NCBI RefSeq assembly: GCF_035084215.1 | Contig: NC_090351.1 | Location: forward strand, 34,038,001-34,102,000 | Reading direction: 5' to 3' | Length of the DNA stretch: 64,000 nt | Source: Heptranchias perlo | Taxonomy: Eukaryota | Shown here: in pieces, positions 1,145-58,230 of the stretch | Layout of the letters: the number at the start of each line of letters is the position of its first letter | Numbering within the stretch: position 1 is the first letter of the stretch | The notes under the pieces: generated by a model | What the model was told of the DNA's origin: nothing | What the model saw: the letters and a program-made list of their open reading frames with translations, nothing else | Database searches by the model: none | Made by a program: the position numbers and the translations under genes

Positions 1145-2504
1145 CTGCGTGGAAAAACCGGTTAGAGCAGGTGCTCTCTGAAGTCTAATCAGACTTGACT
1201 GTAGTAAAGTTTCAGTAAGTATTGGATTTAATACAATAATCGTCTACGGCAAAATCATTTGCAACAGTGTCAGCAGCAAACCTATTTCCTGCATTAGCTC
1301 CTTGTATAGGGGTGTGACCAAAGGTTCCATGCACTCAAATCTCTGTTATAAAGTCTGATAACTGATCTTCTGGTGTTGGGAGTTTATGTATTCTGATTTA
1401 GTTGGGATCTAATTATTGGTCGTCTTCTGCCAAATATGCATCCAGTCTCTCTTGGATCCTGTTCAAACCTCAACCACTAGTCCAGCAGTTGGTACACATC
1501 CAACCCTGGCTGATCCTGTCATAACATCAATCAGCTGGTTCTGAAATAATCTCATCCAGGTGAATAAAGTGCAAGGCCTGTTATCACTTCCTCCAGCTAA
1601 AATTATATCGTATGGGACACGGACTGTTCCACAACTGGTGTTATTGATATTCCGTGGTGAGTCAATAGAGGCATGATTTAACTGGCCATTGACTTGATTT
1701 TTATTTGTTCTTATGAATGGTGGGACTCTCCACTAGCCCTCCCTCCCTCCCCCTCTCAAAGAAGAAATAACCAGCACACTGGCTGAATGCCAACAAAACT
1801 TATTCATCATGAGCTTAGCGATGCTTCAAAGTTTTTCAATGAGTAACTGTGCAATATGGACAAGGGTCCTGGGTTCAATCCCTGGTTTGTGCTGAATTTA
1901 ATAATCCCTGCAAGGGGTGCACACATGTGGTTATCAGATGAGGCCATAATTGAGGTTGGCTGTGATGCCTTTCATGTTGAATAGCCTGCCAAGTCTCACT
2001 CTTCAGGCTTCTGAATGAATAACGGCCACTTGACCAAGTTAACAGAGGGTGATTGGCAATCATGGCATCATACCTCAGAAAAGAGACAACACCTTCAGGG
2101 GAGAAGACTAAGGGGGAGAAATCAGCAGAGAAAAAAAATCAAGGCAACTTGATTTATTATATTTTATGGGGATCTCACAGAGCGAACATAATTTGTTGCC
2201 AGTCTTCAGAGCTTTGACACTGGACATCACTCTCCTGGTGTGGGAATCCAGTTGATGCAACTGGGTGATTCTGCAATCCAATGTGGAGATTGCAGGTCAT
2301 AATGCATGATTTTCTATCCATTAATGGAATCCCCCAAGTCTCATACATATTTCATCCTCTGTATTTTAGGAAAAACCTTGTCCAGGATGAACCCAGTAAT
2401 AAACAGTACAAGGTTAACAGGTTAATGGGTTAAACGTGACTCATACAAACAATGCCCTTTGGTCCTGTTATAGTATCAACCAGATGTATTGAGCTACTAG
2501 TCCT

Positions 2505-2815
2505 TGTGTGGGGATCCTAAACTAGGGGTCATAAATATATGAGAGTCTCTGATAAATGCAGTAGGGAATTCAGGAGAAACTTCTTTACCCAGAGAGTGGT
2601 TAGAATGTGGAACTTGCTACCACATGGAGTAGTTGAGGTGATTAGCATAGATGCATTTAAGGGGAAGCTAGATAAGTACATGAAGGAGAAAGGAATAGGA
2701 GGATATGCTGATAGGGTTGATTAAGTAGGGTGGGTGGAGGCTCATATGAGGCTCATATGAAGCATAAACACCAGCATAGACGAATGGCCCTTTTCTGTGC
2801 TGTAAATTCTATGTA
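2505..2815 (+). mobile_element. CR1 LINE 3' fragment
   Basis: Encodes RRNFFTQRVVRMWNLLP, followed by a CR1 tail (...ctgtgctgtaaattctatg). Confidence 0.85.
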
Positions 2816-2978
2816 ATAGTCCTGATGTGACCTCAGTGATCCTGTTACAATCTCGTCCAACTGAATGACTGCGATCTCCTCCACTAATCACTGTTGTGCT
2901 TTGCACTCAAAAATGTGATAAATACCCTTTTCAATCATTTTATCTGACAAGATGGGGTTTTTTCAGAATTGAAATTAC

Positions 2979-3178
2979 CTTCGTAACAGCAAGGATGTCC
3001 ATTCTGCCAGCTGCGATATTCCCTGCTTTCTGAGGCAGAATCGGCTTTCCCAGACGGTGATCCCCGTGTTTGTTGGGGGGAGAGACTCCACTTACTCTGG
3101 CTAGAGCCGCAATGTTTCTGGAAAAGTTGTGAGTGGTTCAGTGAAGCCGGGGCCTTTTTGACCTGACCACCCTGTGAT
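2979..3178 (-). CDS. EFCC1: EFCC1-like coding exon 2
   Basis: Acceptor ttgttttcaattaag| and donor G|GTAATT. 200 nt, open in the phase 2-to-1 frame required by exons 1 and 3: (R)SQGGQVKKAPASLNHSQLFQKHCGSSQSKWSLSPQQTRGSPSGKADSASESREYRSWQNGHPCCYE. This is a low-complexity linker, so support comes from phase and splice sites. Confidence 0.7.
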
Positions 3179-3228
3179 CTTAATTGAAAACAAATTAAGG
3201 CGCATGTCAGTATTGGCAGGTTAATATC

Positions 3229-3275
3229 GGGGGAGAGGGGCAGGGGCAGGGGCAGGGGCAGGGGCAGGGGCAGGG
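3229..3275 (+). repeat. (GGGGCA)6 microsatellite, potential G-quadruplex
   Basis: Six perfect GGGGCA units read directly from the sequence. Confidence 0.9.
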
Positions 3276-3387
3276 AGAAGGTGTTTCTTTAACATAAAAT
3301 CTTTATCACCTCTGTCAACTTAGAACCTATTCTGCCAACACAGAACTCCTTTGCCAAAGTCTATTGTCATTTTATTCACATGTTTTC

Positions 3388-3720
3388 AGGATATGGGCAA
3401 CACTGGCAAGGCTGCATTTATTACCCAACCCTAGTTGACCTGAGAAGGTGGTAGTGGGGGGGCTGTCGTCTGGAACTCCTGCAGTTCTTAGCAATTTTCT
3501 ATATAACTGAGTGGATTGCCAGGCTACTACAGAGGGGATTTAAGAGTTATCTCCGTAATGTGAGACTGGTGCATGTAGGCCCAGCCCAGGCAGGTTCCCC
3601 TCCCTGAAGGACATTCATGAACCAGTTGGGTTTTTACATCAATCTTGTTTTTTGCACCAGTGCCAGCTCACACATTATCAAATTTATTGAATTCAATTCC
3701 ATCGCTTGGATCTGAACTCA
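3388..3720 (-). mobile_element. Non-LTR retrotransposon 3' end (family unassigned), degraded
   Basis: Matches the repeat seen at 7925-8092 (+), 58258-58592 (-) and 61986-62220 (-), with core ...ggcaaggccagcatttattgcccatccctaattgcccttgagaaggtgg. Confidence 0.6.
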
Positions 3721-5789
3721 TCATAATGAGAAGGTTCAGTTAACAGTTTTAAAGACCGTTTCTGGACCATTCTTTCTTATTTTCTGTTCCCATTTAGGTT
3801 CCATGAACCATTCTGATTGCTTTTGTGGCTTTTTTCTTTCACTGCAGCTCCATTTGTGGCAGTGGATTTCCCAATGGGAATCCCTGTAATATGTGAGCTT
3901 TTTGGAGAGGAAGAGGGAACCAGAAGAAGAATGCCAGGCAAGGCTAGATCCAAAGCAGTCTGTGCCCATCTGCACAGATTAACGGTGGTGCACATGCCAT
4001 AGAGTGAAGAGGCTCCAACTCAGTTTGTAACTTTGTGCCCAATGGCATAGATATGATGTGTCAAACGATAATGCTGGACAGTTCTTTGGAAGCACTCCAG
4101 TCGTGGTATAGTCATGCTTTTCAGTGATACTACATCACAGAACGCATGCCAGGATGATCCAACAGCCAGCTTGGCTTAATTGGCCACATCCACCAAGATA
4201 CCACCAACCATATCAGCAGGTATTGTTGCACCTAGCTAGCAACAACCGAGGGGAATGATCTTCACAGAATCTGGGTCAGCAGAAAGGCAGATGCAGAGCT
4301 GTACCATCTGTTGCAAGGAAACCTGCAATGAAGTCTAGGACAGCCAGTGACAGTAATGGTCAGCTTTATTCTCCAAACTGCTTCCACTTCTTTGCAGACA
4401 TGCTGCAGTGCTGCCCGACGGGGCCCAGCCTCCTTGCAGCCACTTCATGCTGTTATCACTTCCACTTCAGCAGCCACCAAACAGGGATCAGGTGCTGGGC
4501 TGTTCCATCACTTGCTTGCAGACTCCTGCCTGTATATTGTGTTTCCTGTCCCTTTCCAGCTCTCTTCCCCCTTTTAGCATCAGGGGAATGGGTTGCGATG
4601 CCTTTTGCACCCTCCTATTTTGCAACTTCCCATTAATTATCCACACCCTTTTTAATTTTCATATACACCACAATTTTCTGCTCCCTGCACAATTCCAAAT
4701 AGGCACCGGGTGCAGCTGCGAAGAATTATGCAAATGAGCTGACCCAGGAAAGTTGCAAATAGTTGGCACATTACAATTACGGCAAGACTTACACCAATTC
4801 TTAATCATTATGAACTGAATGGGACCAGTACACAAAAACCAGGGCCTTTGTGTTTAGCGTAGAAGATCTTAAGATAGGTTAGAATGAAGAAGGCTCTTTG
4901 TCCCTTTGGACTCATCCTTTGAGAATACCAAGTCTTTTACTTTAACATCTAGCTGCTTATTAAATGAGTCTGGTGTCCTGATCTTAACCACTCTTCCTGC
5001 AACCTGTTCCAACTGTTGACCATCTTCTGTGTAAAGAAACTGGGAGTTTCGGAAAAATACTTACATTATATGTACGTCCGAGCTATCATCAGAACAACAT
5101 TCCTTTGTCTATGTGGGAATTCTTTCACTGACATAATGTCACACACATGGATGGAGATGTCAATAAACAATAATTGTGAAAAAAACACTTTTTCTCTCTC
5201 TCAACAATGACTCTGATTTCATAATAATGTTGCTATTTTCTTTCATTACATCACTCCCTTGTGGAGACAGGAGGAGAATATTTCAGGTTGACTTGATCGT
5301 TATTGCCTTGTGAAGTGAGCAGTATTTTTGCTCTGTTCTCTATTGTGTATCTTGGCTGTCTGGTTACACTGACATTAACAAATGATCTATGCTCTCAAAT
5401 GAAGTGTTACAAGGTGCTGTGGTTTCACTCCAACAAACAACAGTTTAGAGACAGCTGATGGCAGCAAAACCTGTTACAAAACACTTGACAAGTCCAGGCC
5501 ACTTCACTGTCTTAAAAAAAATACATGAGCTCACTGTGGGCACAGTGACTGCTCATGGAGTTATGAAGAAATCTATAAATCGTGAGCATTTTATCAGCTG
5601 TCTTGTCCAACGACGGATCACGACGTCGATTGATTGCAAATTAGCCCTGTCTGTCTCGAGCAGGATTTCCACACCAACTCACTGCATCAATTCAATTCCA
5701 TTCTACTCAACTCCACTTCACTCTATTCCATTTTATTCCACTCAATTTACTCCATTCTGTTATGCTCCTCTCCATTACACTTTGTCCCT

Positions 5790-8092: not shown

Positions 8093-8227
8093 ATTTTTTT
8101 TAAAAAGAATATTTTTCCTGGTCGCTCCTTTTAGTGAAATCATAAACATGTTATACTTTAGAACACTTTCACAATTTCACTGGAAATAGAAAAAAAAATA
8201 AGAAATTATCCCTCTCCTGTCTGTAAT

Positions 8228-8356
8228 GATGTGGAGATGCCGGTGATGGACTGGGGTTGACAATTGTAAACAATTTTACAACACCAAGTTATAGTCCAAC
8301 GATTTTATTTGAAATTTATAAGCTTTCGGAGGCTTCCTCCTTCCTCAGGTAAATGT
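8228..8356 (-). mobile_element. 129-bp hammerhead-containing short retroposon (Penelope-type/retrozyme-like), copy 1, in EFCC1 intron 1
   Basis: TSD tgtaat at 8222-8227 and 8357-8362. The minus strand reads CTGAGGA-A-GGAGG-aag-CCTCC-GAAA-GCTT. Same length and ends as the copy at 49515. Confidence 0.8.
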
Positions 8357-8756
8357 TGTAATAACAGATCGGCTCCCCTTCCCCTGTCCCCTGCTCTTGT
8401 CTGTCATTACAGGTAGGAGTGGATAGGGCTGGAATGAGATGATTCAAACAAAATATATGTTTTGGATGGTTACTGCCAAAAGGTAGTGACTTTCATCACA
8501 ATAGTCTGGGCTGGATTTCAAGTCAAGCCCCATCCTTTAAAGTCAATGTACCACTCGGGTCTATAACCAGCTATAATACCTGCTCTTAAAGACATCAAAA
8601 CATACAGTCATTTGAAAACTGCACCATGCAAAAAGTACATGAATGGATATCTATGGTCATAAATCATTATTTGTGTTTTTTTATTTATATTTTAATGTTG
8701 ATTTATAAAGAATGATTTAAACAGTGTGTTTCAACTGCCCTCCGCCTCCCACTCAC

Positions 8757-14885: not shown

Positions 14886-17790
14886 TGAATTACCACACAG
14901 GGAGTTTCTTAATCTCATCCAGGTTGATATGGGGAGCGTTATGCAGAGACTTTCCCACAGGGAAGAGTGGAAACATTCAAATGCTGAGACTACCCACCTT
15001 GCTTGCTCTGCCCTCTGGATCAAGTGATGATGTGTTGGAGGAGGTTTGAAATAAAAAGGGGGAAACTTTATTTCTTTTAAATGAAGAAAAAGCAAATTAA
15101 AATCATCTTGCAAGTTCACTTATTCACTCTAGCTGTAGAGTCCATTTGGACTGTCATAAAAGTTACATATTTATGAGTACATTAACGTGAAACAAACTCT
15201 GCTTCTAATCTTTTTTTTTAAAAGGTGTGGCACAGTACGTAGACACACCAGTTCTCTGTGCTGCAGCAGTTTCAGGACACAAATTTGATTCCCTAGGCTT
15301 TGAGTTTCTGTCAACCCCACTAAACAGAGGCCAGGCACCTCTCTACAGAATGGAGAGAAAATCAGAGGGCCATTTTTTTTATGCCTTCTGGGTTTGGATC
15401 CTTATTGCCAAAGACAAGGAAACAGGTCACCCTCTTGGGCATAGGTGGTGTACTGCCAGAGAAAGTTTCTACCTCAACAGACTGACCATGCACCCTGGGC
15501 AACCAACTATCTACTGCACTAACGGTTTCCTTAATCAGTATAAAAATATATAAACAGTTATAAATGCATGTTTGAGTGACAGTGCCAAATTGATGATCGT
15601 TTTATCTTGTGGGCCCATGTCCACAAAAAACTGGATTGAGACTTCACAAACTCATTTCAGAGGTGACCATTGTTTCATCAGTCTGGACCGGATTTGAACT
15701 CAGGTCCCAGAGGTGAAAGGTAAGTATTTAAGTCACTGCACTACCCAGTTCCACGCTGTACTCGGTCAAACATATCAACTCTCAGTGGTGCAGAAATTAA
15801 TTTCACCACCCTGTTTCATTCTGATACTCTAATTTGCTGGGCAGCCTTGTGATAAGTCTTCTGATTTTATGTTGCTAGGTAGGCTGCCTTTTGTGCAATA
15901 TTATCCTACCTCAGCGAAGATATAAACTGATACAGCAACAAGAGCGCTTAAGAGATTGAGCATTTTTGAAAAGAGACTGCAGTCTACCTTGTTGCCTCAT
16001 GTCTAATGCCTTATGGCAAAATATATGAATACATCCCAGTTTCATCAATATGACTAAAACAAATCTTTGTATTTCACATTTCTTATTGGCTATCTTCTTT
16101 CAGGCACATTCATTTGGACAAAGAACTGACTCTACAATGAACTTTTACAGGAACTTTGGTATTGAACTCTTGCAACCTTACAAATGTTAATGATCTTAAT
16201 TATGTGATACTGGCAAACCTAGACATAAAACCAGAAACACAAGCAAATCTAAATGTGGACTTGGATAACTGCTAATTTTAGCAAGGACAACTTGTCTTTT
16301 GCCATTGCTGAGGTAAAAGAGAAGATAGTGGCTCCATTCTGGCTCAGGTTTTGATGGTCGTTCCAGTTATTCACATCAATCCAAGGCTAGTTTCCTTTTT
16401 AATGACTATTTTGTTTTCCCTTCTCCAATTTTCTCCTTTCCTCTCCATAACTGTCCTGAAGGTCTGGAGGTCCTCACTGCCCTCCAGTGCCTCAATCAAG
16501 TGGCTATTTGTCCTGTGTGCGATAGTGAGTGTCAGCAGGTTACTTGACTGTAGAGGACGTCACAGCCAAGCCCTGCCTGGTCCTCACCCAAAGCACACGC
16601 ACACGCACACCAACAATGCTGGCAAGTTACCCATCCCTACCCTAGGGATGCTGCAGCCAATTGCTCAGCCCAGATTAGGTATTGAACTGGCCTGTACGGC
16701 TCAAAGGTCGTGACTTTACCTTTAAGCTAACACCTTGCACCCCGAGCAGTTTATCCCAGGACTCGGTATCCATCAATCTCGAACAGGTTCTCATTCCACT
16801 GGCACACCTGCACGAGTACAAGTTAACATTTTCCTATTGCTTCCTCTCAATAGTTTGGCATCAAAAAACAACGCCCCTTCCAACGACCATAGGCTATTGT
16901 GGGCGATAAATCTTTCCGGGCACACAACCTCTTTCTCCCCACTGTAAACGAGCGAGGTCCCAACCAGGAGTGTTATTCACATCAGTAGCTTTTACCCACA
17001 GAATGCTAACTAGGCTGACTAGAATAATCCGCACCAACCCACTTCCGTCAGATCAAGAGGACTGAGCCAAGAATCCGTTCTAATGACATTAGCAATGTTA
17101 GTTTCTTGTTACAAAAGAGAACCTCCTATTTGGGAAGTTTATGCAAATTGCAATTGTTGGCTTTCCCATTATTTTGTTCTGTTGGTGCCTTGCTCTGCGC
17201 CGCACTGCTGCTACTCCTGGGCATTCCTGCTTACCTCTTGCAAATTCTGGCTGTTACTAGCTGCGTCAAGTTTTAATTGTCATCTGTACATAGTGGAATA
17301 GATTTTTATCTTTATGCCTGAACTTAAGCATCATCTGGGCAGATCACAGAAAGGAAAATCAGATGGGGAGGATTTCTGTTCCCCATTCAGATATTTTATG
17401 CCAAGATATGAAAAATGAAAATCTACCCCAGCGATTCCTAACTGTCTATCTTTGCTCCTGATAACCACACAGCAATAGCCAGAGGCGATCATTCCACCAG
17501 GTTGCTTGCACTGCTTATATGCAGATATATCTACCTATACTTGGTCATTCATGGATATTCATAGTTAGTATTTAGCTGTCTCTAAACATTGTTGGCTGTT
17601 GCTGTCCTGGTCGTTCCTGATCATACTTGCTTGTTCTTGACATTAAGAACATAAGAACATAAGAAATAGGAGCAGGAGTAGGCTATTTGGCCCCTCGAGC
17701 CTGCCCCGCCATTCAATAAGATCATGGCTGATCTGATCCTAACCTCAAATCTAAATTCATGTCCAATTTCCTGCCCGCTCCCCGTAACCC

Positions 17791-20580
17791 CTAATTCCCT
17801 TTACTTCTAGGAAACTGCCTTTCTGTTTTAAATTTATTTAATGATGTAGCTTCCACAGCTTCCTGGGGCAGCAAATTCCACAGACCTACTACCCTCTGAG
17901 TGAAGAAGTTTCTCCTCATCTCAGTTTTGAAAGAGCAGCCCCTTATTCTAAGATTATGCCCCCTAGTTCTAGTTTCACCCATCCTTGGGAACATCCTTAC
18001 CGCATCCACCCGATCAAGCCCCTTCACAATCTTATATGTTTCAATAAGATCGCCTCTCATTCTTCTGAACTCCAATGAGTAGAGTCCCAATCTACTCAAC
18101 CTCTCCTCATATGTCCGCCCCCTCATCCCCGGGATTAACCGAGTGAACCTTCTTTGTACTGCCTCGAGAGCAAGTATGTCTTTTCTTAAGTATGGTCACC
18201 AAAACTGTATGCAGTATTCCAGGTGCGGTCTCACCAATACCTTATATAACTGCAGCAATACCTCCCTGTTTTTATATTCTATCCCCCGAGCAATAAAAGC
18301 CAACATTCCGTTGGCCTTCTTGATCACCTGCTGTACCTGCATACTAACTTTTTGATTTTCTTGCACTAGGACCCCCAGATCCCTTTGTACTGCAGTACTT
18401 TCCAGTTTCTCGCCATTAAGATAATAACTTGCTCTCTGATTTTTCCTGCCAAAGTGCATAACCTCACATTTTCCAATATTGTATTGCATCTGCCAAATCT
18501 CCGCCCACTCACCCAGCCTGTCTATATCCCCCTGTAGGTTTTTTATTTCCTCCTCACTCTCTACTTTCCCTCCCATCTTTGTATCATCTGCAAACTTTGA
18601 TATGTTACACTCGGTCCCCTCCTCCAAATCGTTAATATAGATTGTAAAGAGTTGGGGACCCAGCACCGACCCCTGCGGAACACCACTGGCTACTGGTTGC
18701 CAGTCCAAGAATGAACCATTTATCCCAACTCTCTGCTTTCTGTTAGCTAACCAAACCTCCACCCATGCCAGAATATTGCCCCCAATCCAGTGATTCTTTA
18801 TCTTGAGCAATAATCTTTTATGTGGCACCTTGTCGAATGCCTTCTGGAAGTCCAAATACACTACGTCCACTGGTTCCCCTTTATCCACCCTGTACGTTAC
18901 GTCCTCAAAGAACTCAAGCAAATTTGTCAGACATGACTTCCCCTTCATAAAGCCATGCTGACTTTGTTCTATTAAATTATGTTTATCCAAATGTTCCGCC
19001 ACTGTCTCCTTAATAATAGACTCCAAAATTTTACCCACCACAGATGTTAGGCTAACTGGTCTATAATTTCCAGCCTTCTGCCTACTACCCTTTTTAAATA
19101 AGGGTGTTACATTAGCAGTTTTCCAATCTGCCGGGACCTTTGGCGAGTCCAGAGAATTTTGGAAAATTATTACCAAAGCATCCACAATCCCGACTGCCAC
19201 TTCCCTCAAGACCCTAGGATGTAAGCCATCGGGTCCAGGGGATTTATCCGCCTTGAGTCCCATTAATTTACTGAGTACCAATTCCTTAGTGATTTTAATC
19301 GTATTTAGCTCCTCCCCCCCTAGAGCCCCCTGTTTGTCCACTGTTGGGTTATTCTTAGTGTCCTCTACCGTAAAGACTGAAACAAAATATTTGTTCAGCA
19401 TTTTTGCCATCTCCATGTTTCCCACCATTAATTTCCCGGTCTCATCCTCTAAGGGACCTACGTTTGCCTTAGCTACCCCTTTTCTTTTTATATAACTATA
19501 GAAACTCTTGCTATCTGTTTTTATATTTTATGCTAATTTATTTTCATAATCTATCTTCCCTTTCTTAATCAATCCTTTAATTACTTTTTGCTGTCTTTTG
19601 AAGACTTCCCAATCTTCTATCCTCCCACTAAGTTTGGCTACCTTATATGTCCTTGTTTTTAGTCGGATACTATCCTTAATTTCTTTACTTAGCCACGGAT
19701 GGCTGTCATTTCTTTTACACCCTTTTCTCCTCAGTGGAATATATATTTTTTGAAAGTTGTAAAATAACTCCTTAAATGAACACCAATGCTCATGTACCGT
19801 CTTACCCTTTAATCTATTTTCCCAGTCCACTTTAATCAATTCCGCTCTCATACCATCATAGTCTCCTTTATTCAAGCTCAGTACGCTTGTTTGAGAGCCA
19901 ACCTTCTCACCCTCTAATTGGATATGGAATGTAGCCATGTTATGGTCACTCATTCCAAGGGGATCCTTAACTAGGACGTTATTAATTAATCCTGGCTCAT
20001 TACACAGGACCAGGTCCAAGGTTGCTTGCCCCCTTGTAGGATCAGTTACATACTGCTCAAGAAATCCATCCCTAATACACTCAATAAACTCTTCCTCAAG
20101 GCTGCCCTGCCCAATGTGATTTGTCCAGTTAATATAATAGTTAAAATCCCCCATAATTATAGCTGTTCCCTTATTACATGCCCCGACTATTTCCTGATTA
20201 ATACTTCTTCCAGCAGAGTTGCAACTATTAGGAGGCCTATATACTACGCCCACTAGTGTTTTTTTCCCCTTATTATTCCTTATCTCTACCCAAACTGTTT
20301 CATTATCCTGATCCTTTGACCCAATATAATTTCTCAGTATTCGTGATTATTAACATAACCACCCCACCTCCCCTTCCTTCCTTCCTGCCTGTCCTTCCTG
20401 ATTGTTAAATATCCTGGCATATTTAATTCCCAGTCGTTGTCACCCTGCAGCTATGTTTCTGTAATGGCCACAAGATCATACCCATACGTAGTTATTTGTG
20501 CCATTAACTCGTCCATTTTGTTACGAATGCTACGTGCATTCAGATAAAGAACTTTCAAATATGTTTTGTGACACTTAGTT
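17791..20580 (-). pseudogene. CR1 ORF2 (APE endonuclease plus reverse transcriptase), disrupted
   Basis: Motifs YLNARSI...AITET, GDFN, SDHN, YLDFQKAFDKVPH, GVPQGSVLGP and FADD, split across several ORFs by stops and frameshifts. Confidence 0.92.
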
Positions 20581-20912
20581 CCTGCTTTTTCCTTTTTTAA
20601 CACTTTACCTTTTACTCCATACCTTCTGTCCCTTCCTGACACGCTTTCCTCTGTCTCCCTGCTCAGGTTCCCAACCCCCTGCCACAGCTTTGATGCTGGG
20701 TTAATCGCCTTACGCCTTCTAGTTTTTATTTTATCTGTCGTGCCTAAAGTACACTTTCTTTCCGCTGCTCTACGCTTTTCCCTTTCACTTGTTCTTGAAC
20801 AACTGTTTGTACTATTTGTATTGTAGATTTCCCCTGGGTCTTCCCCTCTCCTTGCTGCTCTCAACTTTATTCCCTTCTGACTCCCCGCTCTGGTTCCCAT
20901 CCCCCTGCCACT

Positions 20913-26494: not shown

Positions 26495-27849
26495 TGGCCT
26501 GGATTTTGCTCTGAAAATAACAGCGAGGCTAATGGGGGGTCACCGTTATTTCAGTGCACCTGGTACCGCACATGCGCAGTTAAACACGGAAATCCAGAAG
26601 TTCCTCTATCAGATACCCTACTGCTTTGTAAGCTTTGCAAGAACTGCATCTTGCCGGGTGAGTCACCGTTAAAATTAATGCAACAGTGCAAAGTTCCTCT
26701 ACTGCCCAGAAGGAAACCGTACCTGGAATACTGCATACAGTTTTGGTCTCCAGACTTAAGAAAAGACATACTTGCTCTCGAGGCAGTACAAAGAAGGTTC
26801 ACTCGGTTAATCCCGGGGATGAGGGGGCGGACATATGAGGAGAGGTTGAGTAGATTGGGACTCTACTCATTGGAGTTCAGAAGAATGAGAGGCGATCTTA
26901 TTGGAACATATAAGATTGTGAAGGGGCTTGATCGGGTGGATGCGGTAAGGATGTTCCCAAGGATGGGTGAAACTAGAACTAGGGGGCATAATCTTAGAAT
27001 AAGGGGCTGCTCTTTCAAAACTGAGATGAGGAGAAACTTCTTCACTCAGAGGGTAGTAGGTCTGTGGAATTTGCTGCCCCAGGAAGCTGTGGAAGCTACA
27101 TCATTAAATAAATTTAAAACAGAAATAGACAGTTTCCTAGAAGTAAAGGGAATTAGGGGTTACGGGGAGCGGGCAGGAAATTGGACATGAATTTAGATTT
27201 GAGGTTAGGATCAGATCAGCCATGATCTTATTGAATGGCGGAGCAGGCTCGAGGGGCCGATTGGCCTACTCCTGCTCCTATTTCTTATGTTCTTCTTATG
27301 TTTCTTATAATCTCACCAAAAAAAGGTACGTCAAGCTTCTTTTAAGTCTAAGCAAATTTTAACGGTAAGTCTTAATTACTACCAAGCAACTTCTCTGGCA
27401 CCAAAAATTAATTTTTACAAGTGTGGCGTCTCATTCCCTCACATTTTAATTGTTGTTGGACATTTAAAAAAAAAATTTAATTTACGTTTTTATTTTTTTA
27501 CATTTTCTTTGTCTTTTTTATCTCTGTCTTTTAATTCAGTATTTCTTACCCTCTATTTATTTTGCTTTCCGTGACTGATTTTACATTGAATTCACTATTC
27601 CAATTTACATTTCCTGGTTCTGTGTCTGCGCTGCTTATTAACATGCTTCAATCTGATCGATTAAAGGGATACACAGCAGCTTCCCCCGTTCACACAGGTC
27701 CCAGATACCCGGGAGAGGGCGCTGCACTGGATTGAGGGCCCGACAAGAGGAACTTGCAGTGTTAAAAGCCCATGAAAAGTCTATGGGCAAGTCCAAGTCT
27801 AACAAGCAGCAGGTGGCGTTTGTTCGCTGCTCAGAGCAAAATCAGTCCC
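26495..27849. mobile_element. MITE/non-autonomous DNA transposon hosting a CR1 insertion
   Basis: Imperfect TIRs ggcctggattttgctctga / tcagagcaaaatcagtccc. Confidence 0.55.
26716..27308 (+). mobile_element. Young CR1 3' fragment (same subfamily as 17645 and 29370)
   Basis: Near-identical to the 3' ends of the other two copies, with a (TTCTTATG)n tail. Confidence 0.93.
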
Positions 27850-29369: not shown

Positions 29370-32321
29370 AAGAACATAAGAAATAGGAGCAGGAGTAGGC
29401 CAATCGGCCCCTTGAGCCTGCTCCACCATTCAATAAGATCATGGCTGATCTGATCCTAATCTCAAATCTGAATTCATGTCCAATTTCCTGCCCGCTCCCC
29501 GTAACCCCTAATTCCCTTTACTTCTAGGAAACTGTCGATTTCTGTTTTAAATTTATTTAATGATGTAGCTTCCACAGCTTCCTGGGGCAGCAAATTCCAC
29601 AGACCTACTACCCTCTGAGTGAAGAAGTTTCTCCTCATCTCAGTTTTGAAAGAGCAGCCCCTTATTCTAAGATTATGCTCCCTAGTTCTAGTTTCACCCA
29701 TCCTTGGGAACATCCTTACCGCATCCACCCGATCAAGCCCCTTCACAATCTTATATGTTTCAATAAGATCGCCTCTCATTCTTCTGAACTCCAATGAGTA
29801 GAGTCCCAATCTACTCAACCTCTCCTCATATGTCCGCCCCCTCATCCCCGGGATTAACCGAGTGAACCTTCTTTGTACTGCCTTGAGAGCAAGTATGTCT
29901 TTTCTTAAGTCTGGAGACCAAAACTGTATGCAGTATTCCAGGTGCAGTCTCACCAATACCTCCCTGTTTTTATATTCTATCCCCCGAGCAATAAAAGCCA
30001 ACATTCCGTTGGCCTTCTTGATCACCTGCTGCACCTGCATACTAACTTTTTGATTTTCTTGCACTAGGACCCCCAGATCCCTTTGTACTGCAGTACTTTC
30101 CAGTTTCTTGCCTTTAAGATAATAACTTGCTCTCATTTTTCCTGCCAAAGTGCATAACCTCACAAATTTCCAATATTGTATTGCATCTGCCAAATCTCCG
30201 CCCACTCACCCAGCCTGTCTATATCCCCCTGTAGGTTTTTTATGTCCTCCTCACTCTCCACTTTCCCTCCCATCTTTGTATCATCTGCAAACTTTGATAC
30301 GATACACTCGGTCCCCTCCTCCAAATCGTTGATATAGATTGTAAAGAGTTGGGGACCCAGCACCGACCCCCTGCGGAACACCACTGGCTACTGGTTGCCA
30401 GTCCGAGAATGAACCATTTATCCCAACTCTCTGCTTCCTGTTCGATAACCAATCCTCCACCCATGCCAGAATATTACCCCCAATCCAGTGATTCTTTATC
30501 TTGAGCAATAATCTTTTATGTGGCACCTTGTCGAATGCCTTCTGGAAGTCCAAATACACTACGTCCACTGGTTCCCCTTTATCCACCCTGTACGTTATGT
30601 CCTCCAAGAACTCAAGCAAATTTGTCAGACATGACTTCCCCTTCGTAAAGCCATGCTGACTTTGTCCTATTAAATTATGTTTATCCAAATGTTCCGCTAC
30701 TGTCTCCTTAATAATAGATTCCAAAATTTTACCCACCACAGATGTTAGGCTAACTGGTCTATAATTTCCAGCCTTCTGCCTACTACCCTTTTTAAATAAG
30801 GGTGTTACATTAGCAGTTTTCCAATCTGCCGGGACCTTTGCCGAGTCCAGAGAATTTTGGAAAATTATTACCAAAGCATCCACAATCCCTACTGCCACAT
30901 CCCTCAAGACCCTCGGATGTAAGCCATCAGGTCCAGGGGATTTATCCGCCTTGAGTCCCATTATTTTACTGAGTACCAATTCCTTAGTGATTTTAATCGT
31001 ATTTAGCTCCTCCCCCCACCCCCCCCCCCCCTAGAGTCCCCTGTTTGTCCAGTGTTGGGATATTCTTAGTGTCCTCTACCGTAAAGACTGAAACAAAATA
31101 TTTGTTCAGCATTTTTGCCATCTCCATGTTTCCCACCATTAATTTCCCGGTCTCATCCTCTAAGGGACCTACGTTTGCCTTAGCCACCCTTTTTCTTTTT
31201 ATATAACTATAGATACTCTTATTATCTGTTTTTATACTTTTTGCTAATTTATTTTCATAATCTATCTTCCCTTTCTTAATCAATCCTTTAGTTACTTTTT
31301 GCGGTCTTTTGAAGACTTCCCAATCTTCTATCCTCCCACTAAGTTTGGCTACCTTATATGTCCTTGTTTTTAGTCGGATACTCTCCTTAATTTCTTTACT
31401 TAGCCACGGATGGCTGTCATTTCTTTTACACCCTTTTTTCCTCAGTAGAATATATTTATTTTGAAAGTTGTAAAATAACTCCTTAAATGGACACCACTGC
31501 TCATGTACCGTCTTACCCTTTAATCTATTTTCCCAGTCCACTTTAATCAATTCCGCTCTCATACCATCATAGTTTCCTTTATTCAAGCTCAGTACGCTTG
31601 TTTGAGAACCAATCTTCTCACCCTCTAATTGGATATGGAATGTAGCCATGTTATGGTCACTCACTCCAAGGGGATCCTTAACTAGGACATTATTAATTAA
31701 TCCTGGCTCATTACACAGGACCAGGTCCAAGGTTGCTTGCCCCCTTGTAGGATCAGTTACATACTGCTCAAGAAATCCATCCCTAATACACTCAATAAAC
31801 TCTTCCTCAAGGCTGCCCTGCCCAATTTGATTTGTCCAGTTAATATAATAGTTAAAATCCCCCATAATTATAGCTGTTCCCTTATTACATGCCCCGACTA
31901 TTTCCTGATTAATACTTCTTCCAGCAGAGTTGCAACTATTAGGAGGCCTATATACTACGCCCACTAGTGTTTTTTTCCCCTTATTATTCCTTATCTTTAC
32001 CCAAACTGTTTCATTATCCTGATCCTTTGTCCCAATATCATTTATCTGTATTAGTGATTCCTTCGTTTATTAACATAGCCACCCCACCTCCCCTTCCTTC
32101 CTGCCTGTCCTTCCTGATTGTTAAATACCCTGGCATATTTAATTCCCAGTCATTGTCACCCTGCAGCCATGTTTCTGTAATGGCCACAAGATCATACCCA
32201 TATGTAGTTATTTGTGTCGTTAACTCGTCCATTTTGTTACGAATGCTACGTGCATTCAGATAAAGAACTTTCAAAAATGTTTTGTGACACTTCGTTCCTG
32301 CTTTTTCCTTTTTTAACACTT
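29370..32321 (-). mobile_element. 5'-truncated young CR1 (most of ORF2) nested in Copia
   Basis: APE and RT motifs near-identical to the 17645 copy, with frameshifts including a poly-C expansion near 31011-31031. Confidence 0.95.
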
Positions 32322-32339
32322 CACCTCTATCAAATCTCC

Positions 32340-37884: not shown

Positions 37885-39266
37885 ATGGGGGGGGCACAAT
37901 GGCTGCATTCACCAATATATCCGAGGAGGGGGAGCATCACCATCCTCGCCAGGCACGGTGTGCACTTCTGACACTTGGAGCTCCACAACACAGTGCTGTG
38001 CCACAGGCACCTGAACAAGAGCACGGGGGAACAACAGAGGGAGCGACGTCACAGGAGGCACTACCCTCATCAGCAGGTCTATAGACCGAGGCTCAGCTTC
38101 CTGGACCTCTCTGAGGAGCAGTGCACACAGAGGCTGAGAGTGAGTTGCCAGGCGGTTGCAGACATCTGCATCCTCCTTCATGCCGAGCTGCTCCGGGCTG
38201 GGCCTAGTGGCATCTCATTACCCTCCACTGTTAAAGCCACCACTGCCCTCAACTTCTTTGCCTCTGGATCATTCCAGGGTGCCACTGGTGACATTGCCGG
38301 GGTGTCTCAGTCCTCTGCCCAGAGGTGCATAAGGCAGGTCACCGGCGGCTTGTTTCGCAGGGCCCCACGATACGTCAACCTCCCTGTGGACGACCTCAGC
38401 CAGACGGAGAGGGCAGTAGGATTCCACTCTGTGGCTGGCTTCCTGTATACAGGGTGCAATCGATCGCATGCAAATAGCAATCTGAGCATCTCCACAGGAG
38501 CCAGGACTGTTCATCAACAGAAAGGGGCATCACTCATCAACACTCAGCTCGTTTGTGACCACCACAAAAGATTTCTTCATGTGTGCACCAGATTCCCTGG
38601 CAGCTGCCATGATTTGTTCATTCTGAGGGAATCCAACATCCCGTGTGCCCTCTTCCACACACCAAACAGATTTAAGGGCTGGCCCCTTGGGGATGTTGGA
38701 TTCCCTCAGAATGAACAAATCATGGCAGCTGCCAGGGAATCTGGTGCACACATGAAGAAATCTTTTGTGGTCACAAACGAGCTGAGTGTTGATGAGTGAT
38801 GCCCCTTTCTGTTGATGAACAGTCCTGGCTCCTGTGGAGATACTTGTGTTGCTATTTGCATGCAATCGATTGCACCCAGTACACGAGGTTGATAACACCT
38901 GAGGAACCCTATCGATATACCAACCTCATCGTTAAAACGATAGCCACATCGCCACCAGGTCTGTAATTGAAAGGCGATAGGGCTGCTCAAGATGCGATTT
39001 CGGTGCCTCGATTGTTCTGGGGGAGCGCTTCAATATGCATCAGCGAGAGTGGGTCACATTATAGTAGTGTGTTGTGTCCTGCATAACGTGGTGTAACAGA
39101 GAGAGGTACCGGTTGATGAGATCCCATGCCCTCATCCAGCATCCACATCTGCAATAAACATTGAGGAGGAGCAACAGGAGGAGAAGCAGGACAAACCCAT
39201 GGGCAGGGCTGCGGCTCACCTGACTGCTCGTGAGGCCGGGAAGTCACTTGTGAACGGTTTTCGTAA
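37885..39266 (+). pseudogene. Harbinger DDE transposase (HARBI1-family), disrupted
   Basis: Motifs YRPRLSFLDLSEEQC, ALNFFASGSFQ...GVSQSS, GAID, FINRKG, QLVCD, RFPGSCHD and GWPLGD, with frameshifts and an inverted duplication. Confidence 0.9.
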
Positions 39267-44004: not shown

Positions 44005-44224
44005 ATGGTAAGAACAGAAAATGCTGGAGAAGCTCAGCGAGTCAGGCAGCATCTGTGGAGAAAGAAACAGAGTTAACGTTTCAGGTCCGAACTCTGCCGA
44101 AAGGTCTTCGACCTGAAATGTTAACCCTGTTTCCTGCTCCACAGATGCTGCCTCACTTGCTGAGCTTTTCCAGCATTTTCTGTTTTTATTTCAGATTTCC
44201 AGCATCTGCAATATTTTGCTTTTG
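44005..44224 (+). mobile_element. 220-bp palindromic Penelope-type non-autonomous element with degenerate hammerhead core
   Basis: TSD gctaaatgttt (43994-44004, 44225-44235), ~74-bp inverted arms (44014-44087, 44110-44183), and core CTGcCGA-A-AGGTC-ttc-GACCT-GAAA. Confidence 0.75.
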
Positions 44225-46976: not shown

Positions 46977-47018
46977 TTGTAAACAATTTTACAACACCAA
47001 TTTATAGTCCAGCAATTT
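46977..47018 (-). repeat. Internal fragment of the 129-bp hammerhead element
   Basis: ttgtaaacaattttacaacaccaa.ttatagtcca matches 8264-8300. Confidence 0.7.
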
Positions 47019-48744: not shown

Positions 48745-49972
48745 AAGTATGGTCATTGTACTAGCGTGCCAAAAGACCCAAAAAATATAAAGGCACAATT
48801 TTAGATTTGCCAGGAGGGAACTGGGGAGAGAATTCTGAAATATGGTAAACAGTGAGGATGAACAATGACTAACAGGAAAAGACCCTCTGGCCCATCCAGC
48901 TTGTCCCACACAATTGTGATACCTCGTGCATCACAATATATACACTCCCCACCCCACCCGAAACCATGTGATCTCCTGGGAGAGGCGAAAACCAGATAAA
49001 AACCCGAGCCAATTTGGGGGGATAAAAGTCCAGGAAATTCATCTCCGATGCCCTTAGGTGATCAAAACTAGTCCAGGAGATCACTCTGGCCCTGATAATT
49101 CTATGCATGTAGTTCCAAGAAGTGTGATTAGAAGTAGGAAGTGATGCATTTTGGTAGGAAGAATGAGGAGTGGCAAATATAAACTAAATGATACAATTTT
49201 AAAGCGGGTGCAGGAACAGAGAGGCTTATAAACAGAGGCATAGAGTACAAAAGCATGGAAGTTATGCTAAACCTTTATAAAACACTAGTTAGGACCCAGC
49301 TGGAGTATTATGTCCAATTCTGAGCACCACACTTTAGGAAGGATGCCAAGGCCTTAAGAGAGGGTGCAGAGGAGATTTACTAGCATGGCACCAGGGATGC
49401 GGGAATTCAATGACTTAGAGAGACTAGAGAAGCCAGGGTTGTTCTCCTTAGAGCAGAGAAGATTAAGGGGACATTTAATAGTGTTCAAAATCATGAATGA
49501 CTTTGATAGAGTAGACATTTGCCTGAGGAAGGAGGAAATCTCCGAAAGCTTGTGAATTTAAAATAAAATTGCTGGACTATAACTTGGTGTTGTAAAATTG
49601 TTTACAATTGTCAACCCCAGTCCATCACCGGCATCTCCACATCTTGATAGAGTAGGGTTGTGGCAGAAGGGTTGATAACCAGAGGACACAGTTTTACGTT
49701 AATTGGCAAAAGAACCAGAGGCGAGATGAGGAGAATTTTTTTTATGCAGTGAGTTGTTATGATCTGGAATGCACTGCCTGAAAGGGTGGTGGAAGCAGAT
49801 TCAATAGTAACTTTCAAAAGGGAATTGGATAAATACTTCAAGGAGAAAAATGTGCAGGCCTATGGGAAAAAGGCAGGGGAATGGGACTAATTGGATAGCT
49901 TTTTCAAAGGGTCAGCACAGGCATGATTGGCTGAATGGCCTCCTTCTGTGCTGTACCATCCTATGATTCTAT
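48745..49972 (+). mobile_element. CR1 3' fragment carrying two nested insertions (48858-49095 and 49515-49643)
   Basis: Encodes QRRFTSMAPGMRE...LFSLEQRRLRG and ends ctgtgctgtaccatcctatgattctatg. Confidence 0.85.
49515..49643 (+). mobile_element. 129-bp hammerhead-containing short retroposon, copy 2
   Basis: 12-bp TSD ttgatagagtag (49503-49514, 49644-49655). Core reads atttgc-CTGAGGA-A-GGAG-gaaat-CTCC-GAAA-GCTT-gtgaat. Confidence 0.85.
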
Positions 49973-56789: not shown

Positions 56790-58230
56790 AGGAACATAAG
56801 AAATTCCAGAGAGTATAGGCCCATTCTACTCAACCTCTCCTCATAGGACAACACTCTCATCCAGGAATTAATCTGGTGAACCTATGTTGCACTGCCTCTA
56901 AGGCAAGTATATCCTTCCTTAGATAAGGAGACCAAAACTGAATGCAGTACTCCAGGTGAGGTCTCACCAGAGCCCTGTATAATTGTAGTAAGACATCCTT
57001 ACTCTTGTACTCCAACCCCCTTGCAATAAAGACCAACATGCCATTTGCTTTCCTAATTGCCTGCTGTACCTGCATGTTAACTTTCTGTGTTTTGTGTACA
57101 AGGACCCCCAAATCCCTCTGAACTCCAGCATTTAATAGTTTCTCACCATTTAAAAAAATATTCTGTTTTTCTATTCTTCCTACTGAAGTGAATAACCTCA
57201 CATTTCCCCACATTATACTCCATCTGCCATCTTCTTGCCCACTTACTTAACCTGTCTATATCCCTTTGCAGAATCTTTGTGTCCTCGTCATAGCTTACTT
57301 TCCCACCGAGCTTTGTACCGTCAACAAACTTGGATACATTACACTCGGTCCCTTCATCCAAGTTATTAACATAGATTGTAAATAGCTGAGGCCCAAGCAC
57401 TGATCCTTGCGGCACCCCACTAATTACAGCCTGCCAACCTGAAAATGACCCGTTTATCCCTACTCTCTGTTTTCAGTCCATTAACCAATCCCCTATCCAT
57501 GCTAATATGTTACCCCCGACCCCATGAGCTCTTACCTTGCATAACAACCTCTTATATGGCACCTTATCGAATGCCTTTTGAAAATCTAAATATACTACAT
57601 CCCCTGGTTCCCCTTCATCTACCCTGCTAGTTACATCCTCAAAAAACTAGTAAATTTGTCAAAAACGATTTCCCTTTCATAAAACCATGTTGACTCTGCC
57701 TAATCGTATTATGATGTTCTAAGTTACCACTTCCTTAATAATGGATTCCAGCATTTTCCTGACAACTGATGTCAGGCTAACTGGCCTGTAGTTCCCTGTT
57801 TTCTCTTTCCCTCCTTTCTTGAATAGCGGAGTTACATTTACTACCTTCCAATCTGCTGGGACTGTTCCAGAATCTAGGAAATTTTGGAAGATCATAACCA
57901 ATGCAGCCATTATCTCTGCAGCCACCTCTTTTAGAACCCTCAGACGTAGGCCATATGGTTCAGGGGATTTATCGGCATTTAGTCCCATTAGTTTCTCAAG
58001 TACTTTTCTTTACTGATAATAATCACTTTCAGTTCCTCACTCTCATTAGGCCCATGGTTACCCACTATTTCTGGTGTGCTTTTTGTGTGTTCTACTGTGA
58101 AGACAGATACAAAATATTTGTTTAACGCATTTGCCATTTCCTTATTCCCAATTATAATTTCTCCTGTCTCAGCCTCTAAGGGACCAACGTTTACTTTTGC
58201 TACTCTCTTCCTTTTTACATACTTGTAGAA
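56790..58230 (-). mobile_element. CR1 RT-region fragment with internal deletions
   Basis: Motifs NYRPVSLTSVV, PQGSVLGPQLF and LVRPHLEYCIQFW. Confidence 0.9.

What the first reader, a model, noticed from the sequence alone, without database searches (positions are those of the whole stretch)
49515..49643. A discrete 129-bp mobile element built around a minimal hammerhead ribozyme
Seen: two copies 41 kb apart (8228-8356 minus, 49515-49643 plus) are both exactly 129 bp, start ACATTT, end CTCCACATC, and have their own TSDs (6 bp tgtaat; 12 bp ttgatagagtag). Each begins with a type I hammerhead layout: stem I (atttgc/gtgaat), CUGAGGA, one extra A, stem II (GGAG/CTCC; GGAGG/CCTCC in the other copy), GAAA, then a palindromic AGCU in place of stem III with a predicted CUU cleavage triplet. 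AATAAA and a TTGTAAA/TTTACAA hairpin follow. There is no ORF, Pol III box, TIR or poly-A tail. Known: Penelope-like element terminal repeats and retrozymes carry minimal hammerheads with palindromic stem III that act as dimers. Inference: this is a non-autonomous, ribozyme-processed retroposon moved in trans by a Penelope-type RT/endonuclease, inserting with fixed ends and variable-length TSDs. I do not know whether this family is already catalogued.
Basis: partly seen in the sequence, partly recalled or inferred. Interest (0 to 1): 0.8.

Follow-up and report, generated by a model that had tools for sequence, protein, structure and literature searches.

The report
Truncated Penelope retrotransposon leader in shark
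The two 129-base repeats are not a jumping element of their own but the ribozyme-bearing front end of a very common, known kind of jumping gene (Penelope-like), and where such short copies stop suggests they were copied up to the start of that gene's messenger RNA.

Summary
Both copies, their target-site duplications and the minimal hammerhead are real. The 129-mer is not a discrete element. It is the last 129 bp of the pseudo-LTR of an autonomous Penelope-like retrotransposon (902-aa RT + GIY-YIG ORF, Neptune-type linker) and ends at that ORF's ATG. Its 29-nt 3' end has 43,266 exact genomic matches; head-to-tail 129-mer junctions numbered 6. Ends are not fixed: 5' breaks cluster 115-143 nt from the 3' end (46 of 98 copies), with two 3' ends about 35 nt apart, the known PLE 'tail'. 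Only 2 of 80 breaks lie near the ribozyme cut site, so the ribozyme does not make the unit. One point I did not find in print: 5' breaks peak 30 nt below a TATA box in two subfamilies whose TATA-to-ribozyme spacing differs by 6-8 nt (15:1 versus 7:26 loci, p 1.4e-6). I infer that reverse transcription primed in the mRNA's 5' leader ran off at the transcription start. No RNA data tested this. Verdict: known kind, modest mechanistic interest.

The parts
49503..49514 (+). left target-site duplication of copy B (12 bp)
   Evidence: single in paralogous host-repeat copies
49515..49643 (+). copy B: last 129 bp of the pLTR of a Penelope-like element, from about the inferred transcription start (TATA+32) to the base before the ORF's ATG
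   Evidence: 100% identical to the pLTR that abuts the 902-aa ORF in L031; TATA distance
49517..49557 (+). minimal type I hammerhead motif: stem I 49517-49522/49552-49557, core 49523-49529, extra A, stem II 49531-49543, GAAA 49544-49547, AGCU palindrome, predicted cut between 49551 and 49552
   Evidence: sequence; core intact in 56 of 64 unselected copies; pair counts; cleavage not tested
49562..49567 (+). AATAAA; two of its positions vary in about 9% of 389 copies; role as polyadenylation signal untested
49590..49611 (+). small hairpin whose 3' side is the second (short) 3' end of insertions, positions about 91-97 of the 129-mer; inferred RT start site 2
   Evidence: 3' ends peak at position 95; hairpin in MFE fold
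49610..49643 (+). PLE 'tail': about 35 nt between the short and the long 3' end; long end at the ORF start is inferred RT start site 1
   Evidence: tail defined in PMC8557442 and PMC11167929
49644..49655 (+). right target-site duplication of copy B
8222..8227 (+). target-site duplication at the 3' side of copy A (6 bp)
8228..8356 (-). copy A: same leader from another subfamily; its first base is TATA+30 in the identical, longer copy L049
8314..8354 (-). hammerhead motif of copy A, with a C-A mismatch at the inner stem I pair
8357..8362 (+). target-site duplication at the 5' side of copy A (6 bp)
46977..47018 (-). third fragment of the same element (positions 52-93 of the 129-mer), ending at the short 3' end; no clear TSD

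Best explanation
The two copies are dead-end, extremely short insertions of an autonomous Neptune-type Penelope-like retrotransposon (PLE) of a shark. SHOWN: the 129-mer is the end of the pLTR, carries the hammerhead motif and abuts the ATG of a 902-aa RT + GIY-YIG ORF; insertions have two 3' ends about 35 nt apart, TSDs of mostly 12 bp, and often a head-to-head inverted arm. INFERRED: (1) a TATA box in the pLTR starts the mRNA about 30 nt downstream, so the 129-mer is the mRNA's 5' leader; (2) the element's protein nicks target DNA and primes reverse transcription inside the RNA, at the ORF start or about 35 nt before it; (3) because the pLTR occurs at both ends of the mRNA, priming in the 3' copy gives ordinary, variably truncated insertions, while priming in the 5' leader runs off the RNA's 5' end after about 95 or about 130 nt, giving solos like these two or, when both target strands are extended, the head-to-head pairs; (4) the template is uncut by the ribozyme, which probably acts only as a dimer on tandem transcripts; (5) solos lack the upstream TATA box and the ORF start, so they do not propagate.
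For: Intact element in L031: 129-mer, ORF 902 aa, 129-mer; RVT_1 E 3.2e-10; GIY-YIG E 3.8e-4; YIDD, C-X5-C-X2-C linker, VVY...YIG; relatives at 80-96% identity named from sharks. Unbiased sample of 98: 46 break at 115-143, 30 run past the TATA box, TSD of 8 bp or more in 55 with mode 12. 3' ends bimodal at about 95 and 131. TATA test: in the copy-B subfamily (TATA to core 40 nt) 16 of 27 short copies break at TATA+29 to +33; in a subfamily with 46-48 nt spacing 30 of 52 break at +27 to +32; mode +30 in both; relative to the ribozyme the peaks differ (15:1 versus 7:26 per locus, p 1.4e-6). In the long subfamily the modal first base is the A of a TCATTTT that fits the initiator consensus (consensus recalled), and a second copy of the same motif 14 nt upstream, above the inferred start, is hardly used (1 break at 31 nt). 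Some solos carry 6-11 nt of the ORF start (L085, L108), so their template ran into the ORF. Internal priming at two sites that bound the tail, extension of both target strands and insertion from uncut RNA were shown in vitro for an anole PLE (PMC11167929).
Against: No RNA 5'-end data: the four runs laid were contigs of guessed RNA status. Breaks are spread: 9 of 40 long-subfamily breaks fall in the short-subfamily bin, and 6 copy-B-type arms break 25 nt above the core at a hairpin. The Fisher bins were chosen after seeing the data, though the direction was noted before (note). A cap-derived extra G was seen in only 1 of 5 solo junctions with added bases. GIY-YIG score 21.1 is under the curated 22.6. 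D. virilis Penelope has a TATA-less internal promoter (PMC2377424), and some subfamilies here lack an exact TATA (L101, L104). In a nearest-neighbour test 33 of 95 TATA-less, non-inverted copies were closer to each other than to a TATA-bearing copy, 8 the reverse, 54 tied. Samples come from the first part of contigs C1 and C2 only.
Confidence: 0.65

Rival explanations
1. Same run-off at the transcription start, but the templates are short RNAs from ORF-less donors that keep the TATA box (5'-truncated copies or mini-arrays such as the 404-bp array), moved in trans. Solos would then be non-autonomous in origin though still dead on arrival.
For: Many truncated copies keep TATA plus leader (30 of 98 run past it). 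A ten-unit 404-bp array with TATA, ribozyme and 128 nt of ORF start sits between 11-bp direct repeats. pLTRs sufficed for trans mobilisation in a rotifer (PMC3846280).
Against: The anole protein needed the first 172 nt of the ORF on its RNA (PMC11167929); most truncated copies are followed by host DNA after 0-6 nt of ORF. Solos show no host sequence carried from a donor in the junctions read.
Confidence: 0.17
2. All copies are primed in the 3' pLTR and the pile-up is a truncation hot spot set by RNA structure, microhomology or the endonuclease's ATT preference, with no link to transcription start.
For: PLE insertions are generally 5'-truncated (PMC8557442, PMC8969392). A hairpin just upstream in the copy-B subfamily is predicted to pair with the ribozyme's 5' arm and 6 inverted arms break in it. 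ATT motifs lie near both peaks.
Against: The peak moves with the TATA box, not the ribozyme. The long subfamily has a direct repeat, not that hairpin, and its upstream ATT repeat is hardly used. A stalled RT should stop on the 3' side of a stem (inference), whereas these breaks lie beyond its 5' arm.
Confidence: 0.12
3. One reading: a separate 129-nt retrozyme-like element, cut out by its hammerhead from multimers, circularised and inserted in trans with fixed ends.
For: Solos with TSDs are common (16 of 98). Six head-to-tail junctions exist and three more after the short end. One contig in 1 of 4 runs goes back by 129 nt. Animal retrozymes derive from pLTRs (10.64898/2026.07.22.740005).
Against: Ends are ragged and shared with ORF-linked copies; the cut site is internal and unused (2 of 80); the six junctions have 3-12 nt spacers, four beginning with ATG-like or AT bases as other insertions do; 42 of 95 solo-like copies are identical over 86 nt to a TATA-bearing pLTR, and only 2 haplotypes (2 copies each) were private to them; the back-joined contig can come from a genomic tandem.
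Confidence: 0.05

Closest known systems
Endonuclease-bearing Penelope-like elements, Neptune group (Craig et al. 2021, PMC8557442; passages read)
   Same: Single RT + C-terminal GIY-YIG ORF, CX2-5CxxC linker, pLTRs, partial tandems, inverted 5'-truncated arm, 30-40 bp tail at one end, hammerhead in the pLTR.
   Different: Nothing structural. Nematis shares the linker and I built no tree. I could not search Repbase or Dfam, so whether this shark family is catalogued is open.
[quoted passage not shown]
   Same: Type I, no stable stem III, palindromic 15.2-16.2, extra base after position 9, G10.1-C11.1; the paper already reports most such motifs as single, dispersed copies probably from truncated PLEs.
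   Different: Stem II here is 4-5 bp. The parts I read do not cover sharks or the 5' boundary of solo copies.
PAc, Poseidon PLE of Anolis carolinensis (Frangieh et al. 2024, PMC11167929; main text read, supplements not seen)
   Same: Two RT start sites that bound the tail; both target strands extended; uncut RNA is the insertion template.
   Different: In PAc the ribozyme overlaps the start codon and RT starts 111-118 nt into the ORF; here the ribozyme is in the leader and the two 3' ends lie at and about 35 nt before the ATG. The main text does not describe run-off at a transcription start.
Animal non-LTR retrozymes (PMC7229834, passages; Li et al. 2026 preprint 10.64898/2026.07.22.740005, parts 1 and 3 and passages)
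   Same: Non-coding, type I hammerhead, pLTR-derived, larger TSDs.
   Different: Retrozymes are tandem arrays of ribozyme-bearing units; the 129-mer is almost never tandem. The 404-bp array L318 fits that definition; the window copies do not.

Membership tests
EN+ Penelope-like element (parent) | single ORF with RT and C-terminal GIY-YIG endonuclease | tested here: met
   902-aa ORF; RVT_1 E 3.2e-10; GIY-YIG E 3.8e-4, just under the curated cut-off; many relatives carry PF01541
EN+ Penelope-like element (parent) | ORF flanked by direct pseudo-LTRs; tandem units | tested here: met
   129-mer on both sides of the ORF in L031; 3,083-bp head-to-tail units in L316-L317
EN+ Penelope-like element (parent) | 5'-truncated and inverted arms, 30-40 bp tail at one end, TSD | tested here: met
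   54 of 98 copies with an inverted arm, TSD mode 12 bp; 3' ends at about 95 and 131
Neptune group | CX2-5CxxC linker between RT and endonuclease | tested here: met
   CHGNLCKTC at residue 753; feature shared with Nematis
Neptune group | RT phylogeny with reference Neptune elements | not tested
   no named reference PLE proteins were at hand
Minimal PLE hammerhead | conserved core CUGANGA and GAAA, cleavage triplet, only N7 free | tested here: met
   strict core in 56 of 64 copies selected on the 3' end only; invariant except N7 in 20 of 20 haplotypes seen 3 or more times, partly by selection of the query patterns
Minimal PLE hammerhead | stems I and II kept by compensatory change | tested here: inconclusive
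   95.9% of cells paired (0/500 shuffles), 2 of 11 pairs with changes on both sides (63/500), covariation score 11/500; inner stem I pair broken in 4 of 20 haplotypes; sequences closely related
Minimal PLE hammerhead | extra base after position 9, G10.1-C11.1 pair, palindromic 15.2-16.2 | tested here: met
   all invariant in alignment A2; features listed in PMC4209133
Minimal PLE hammerhead | self-cleavage as a dimer | not testable with these tools
   needs an in vitro assay
Rfam hammerhead families | score at or above gathering threshold | tested here: not met
   no match
Non-LTR retrozyme | tandem array of two or more ribozyme-bearing units | tested here: not met
   window copies are single; 6 + 3 head-to-tail junctions for the variants searched against 43,266 3' ends
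Non-LTR retrozyme | expressed as unit-length linear and circular RNA | tested here: inconclusive
   one contig going back 129 nt in 1 of 4 runs, contigs only, RNA status guessed
Independent non-autonomous family (SINE-like) | fixed ends | tested here: not met
   solo lengths 115-143, none 129 of 16; a second class ends at about 95
Independent non-autonomous family (SINE-like) | own lineage with private variants | tested here: inconclusive
   42 of 95 identical to a TATA-bearing copy, 66 within 2 changes; but 33 closer to another solo-like copy against 8

The most novel reading that the evidence does not exclude
About half of all insertions of this 43,000-copy shark PLE family are copies of the mRNA's 5' leader, primed internally and run off at a TATA-directed cap site. 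The genome then holds a natural 5' RACE of the element in tens of thousands of events, shows in vivo that PLE reverse transcriptase primes next to the start codon on RNA that the hammerhead has not cut, and explains both the solo hammerheads scattered through animal genomes and the head-to-head inverted pLTR as two run-off products of one cut target.
Probability: 0.55. Interest if true: 0.55.

Novelty: new member of a known kind. Interest (0 to 1): 0.32.

Why it matters
The element itself is ordinary: hammerheads in PLE terminal repeats, and their scatter as single copies, were described in 2014. The useful residue is mechanistic. How PLEs make their inverted and solo pLTR insertions and what the ribozyme does are open questions in the papers read. 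A young, very large family with subfamilies that differ in TATA spacing gives a ready natural test, and one CAGE library or an in vitro priming assay would settle it. It also warns that short 'retrozyme monomers' found by motif search can be by-products of an autonomous element.

Tried and rejected
Rfam: nothing at gathering score, no hammerhead at E<=10. Folding z-scores not significant; co-folding two ribozyme domains did not give the double-hammerhead fold as the minimum. DNA search with the last 64 nt returned nothing because common words are skipped; a pattern count was used instead. First boundary script was spoiled by references holding inverted arms and was redone; ungapped extension stopped at a T-rich tract 170-190 nt upstream and was redone with gaps. 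RNA: no RNA holder listed on record; contigs cannot show a start, strand or level. Cap-G signature: 1 of 5, not supported. Ribozyme cleavage as the source of the 5' end: rejected (2 of 80). Splice acceptor as the 5' end: no AG precedes it in the subfamilies seen. Nearest-neighbour test for a solo lineage was inconclusive; its 'solo' class includes subfamilies without an exact TATA. Rows dropped: 3 of 55 short long-subfamily copies whose best reference had 40-nt spacing; copies breaking under 7 nt above the core were left out of the Fisher test (17 of 44 in the copy-B set) to match the other pattern; 100 listed places collapsed to 98 distinct, two pairs of which are local duplicates. Lunse et al. 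2017 is not held (title seen only). PMC3681739 seen as a listing only. Earlier scan notes: none for this sequence or genome; those concern other genomes.

Full report
OBSERVATION. The two copies lie where stated and are 129 bp long. The flanking direct repeats are exact. For copy B the host is a repeat with many paralogs among the loci fetched; they carry the site once, so the 12-mer is a true duplication, with the right flank about 16 nt shorter than in the paralogs. The hammerhead reads as described: stem I, CUGAGGA, one extra A, stem II, GAAA, an AGCU palindrome and a predicted cut after position 37. Rfam does not detect it and the 129-mers fold no better than shuffles. Across copies the support is better: 56 of 64 copies chosen only by their 3' end keep a strict core, and in 20 haplotypes seen three or more times the core varies only at N7 while 95.9% of stem cells pair, with two pairs changing on both sides. 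That covariation is modest, the haplotypes are close relatives and partly chosen by patterns over the motif, and copy A has a mismatch at the inner stem I pair.

WHAT IT IS. A genome search with copy B gave 801 candidates; the 40 scored were identical over all 129 bases. Of 30 such loci, 20 continue upstream into the same sequence, 8 abut an inverted arm and 2 are solos. Upstream lies the end of an ORF; downstream of position 129 lies its start. L031 holds the whole unit: 129-mer, a 902-aa ORF starting at the next base, 3' region, 129-mer. The protein has an RT domain, a C-terminal GIY-YIG match just under the curated cut-off and a CX5CX2C linker, which marks Neptune and Nematis PLEs (PMC8557442, passages). 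Its best relatives among 824 hits of 8,000 scored are 80-96% identical and named from sharks, so the host is inferred to be a shark. Copy A is identical to L049, which runs 555 nt upstream into element sequence. The 29-nt 3' end occurs 43,266 times exactly; 927 places run on at least 15 nt into the ORF start.

ARE THE ENDS FIXED? I fetched the first 100 places listed for the 3' end (98 distinct, all from the first 7.1 Mb of contig C1). Measured from the 3' end, 46 break at 115-143 nt (30 into an inverted arm, 16 solo), 17 below 115, 5 at 144-189 and 30 at 190 or more; none of the 16 solos measured exactly 129; TSDs of 8 bp or more were found in 55, with 12 bp in 27. Copies chosen by the ribozyme region show two 3' ends, about positions 95 and 131, and solos of both lengths. 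The 35-nt difference is the PLE tail, which in an anole PLE lies between two RT start sites (PMC11167929). The ribozyme cut would leave 92 nt; only 2 of 80 breaks lie within 5 nt of it. Head-to-tail junctions of the leader number 6 after the long end, all with 3-12 nt spacers, and 3 after the short end, for the variants searched.

WHY THE PILE-UP? A TATAAAT lies 32 nt above the first base of copy B and 30 nt above that of copy A in their longer twins. Subfamilies differ in the TATA-to-ribozyme distance, which gives a test. I took 101 copies of the copy-B subfamily (818 in the genome) and 78 of a longer-spaced one (11,237; first 70 or so of 100 listed). In the first (spacing 40 nt) 57 run on 100 nt or more; of 27 that break 7-99 nt above the core, 16 break at TATA+29 to +33. 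In the second (46-48 nt) 23 run on; of 52 short ones, 30 break at TATA+27 to +32. The mode is +30 in both, while relative to the ribozyme the peaks differ: 16:1 against 9:31 per copy, 15:1 against 7:26 per locus, p 1.4e-6 (bins set after seeing the data). The modal first base in the long subfamily is the A of an initiator-like TCATTTT (consensus recalled), and an identical motif 14 nt further up is hardly used. A TATA box about 30 nt above the start site is textbook knowledge (recalled). A putative TATA plus initiator was noted in rotifer pLTRs (PMC3846280), whereas D. virilis Penelope is TATA-less (PMC2377424).

MECHANISM. Shown: identity with the pLTR, two 3' ends, TSDs, inverted arms, 5' pile-up that moves with the TATA box. 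Inferred: the mRNA starts at TATA+30, so the 129-mer is its leader; RT primes internally at or about 35 nt before the ATG; priming in the 5' leader runs off the RNA end and gives solos of about 95 or 130 bp, or head-to-head pairs when both target strands are extended, as the anole enzyme does in vitro. The template spans the ribozyme uncut, matching the in vitro result that cleavage is not needed. The ribozyme most likely works as a dimer on tandem transcripts such as the 3,083-bp units of L316-L317; in read-through RNA of the copy-B subfamily an upstream hairpin is predicted to mask it (computation only). Against: no RNA 5' ends could be read, the cap-G signature was seen in 1 of 5 junctions, 6 inverted arms break at the hairpin, and the test for a solo lineage was inconclusive.

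COMPARISON AND NOVELTY. Minimal hammerheads in pLTRs, dispersed mostly as single copies from truncated PLEs, are in PMC4209133. Retrozymes are tandem arrays derived from pLTRs; the window copies fail that test, though a 404-bp, ten-unit array elsewhere meets it. A pile-up of PLE 5' breaks at a TATA-defined start was not found in searches or in the passages read; subscription papers, Repbase, Dfam and supplements were not seen, so it may be known. Verdict: new member of a known kind, interest 0.32; the run-off reading would deserve about 0.55 if confirmed.

Noticed in passing
L318 (G000:C2:21271500-21278500), 1346-5192: Ten ribozyme cores at a 404-bp period; unit = 128 nt of ORF start + 276 nt of 3' region and pLTR; the whole array lies between 11-bp direct repeats, so it looks like a retrozyme-type multimer inserted in one event.
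   Followed up: partly
L316-L317 (G000:C1:188730500-188745000): Head-to-tail full-length units at a 3,083-bp period, each ORF preceded by TATA and ribozyme; two 902-aa ORFs read open.
   Followed up: partly
window 46977-47018 (-): Third fragment of the element, positions 52-93, ending at the short 3' end, no clear TSD.
   Followed up: partly
window 49250-49960: Copy B sits in the 3' part of an abundant LINE-like repeat (CR1-type by recall); the flank right of the TSD is about 16 nt shorter than in paralogs.
   Followed up: partly
L040, 25 nt upstream of the 129-mer: In the copy-B subfamily a hairpin above the inferred start is predicted to pair with the ribozyme's 5' arm in read-through RNA; three insertions invert exactly there.
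   Followed up: partly
L101, L104: Subfamilies with the ribozyme but without an exact TATA box; a natural control for the start-site model.
   Followed up: no
L032:4991-5119, run X4: One contig goes back by 129 nt; a circle or a genomic tandem cannot be told apart.
   Followed up: no
L128-L131 (G000:C1:3.99-4.02 Mb); L028/L029: Element copies duplicated together with their flanks, i.e. local segmental repeats.
   Followed up: no
P0016: A shark protein annotated as an epn2 isoform holds a 96% identical piece of this ORF (29% of the query): exonised element or annotation error.
   Followed up: no
window 17650-20610, 26713-27294, 29370-32326, 56860-58230: Several young copies (95-100% alike in part) of a 3-kb repeat, one inverted; not identified.
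   Followed up: no
window 38445-38884 and 44009-44188: Long, near-perfect inverted repeats with short spacers (arms of 118, 82 and 79 nt).
   Followed up: no
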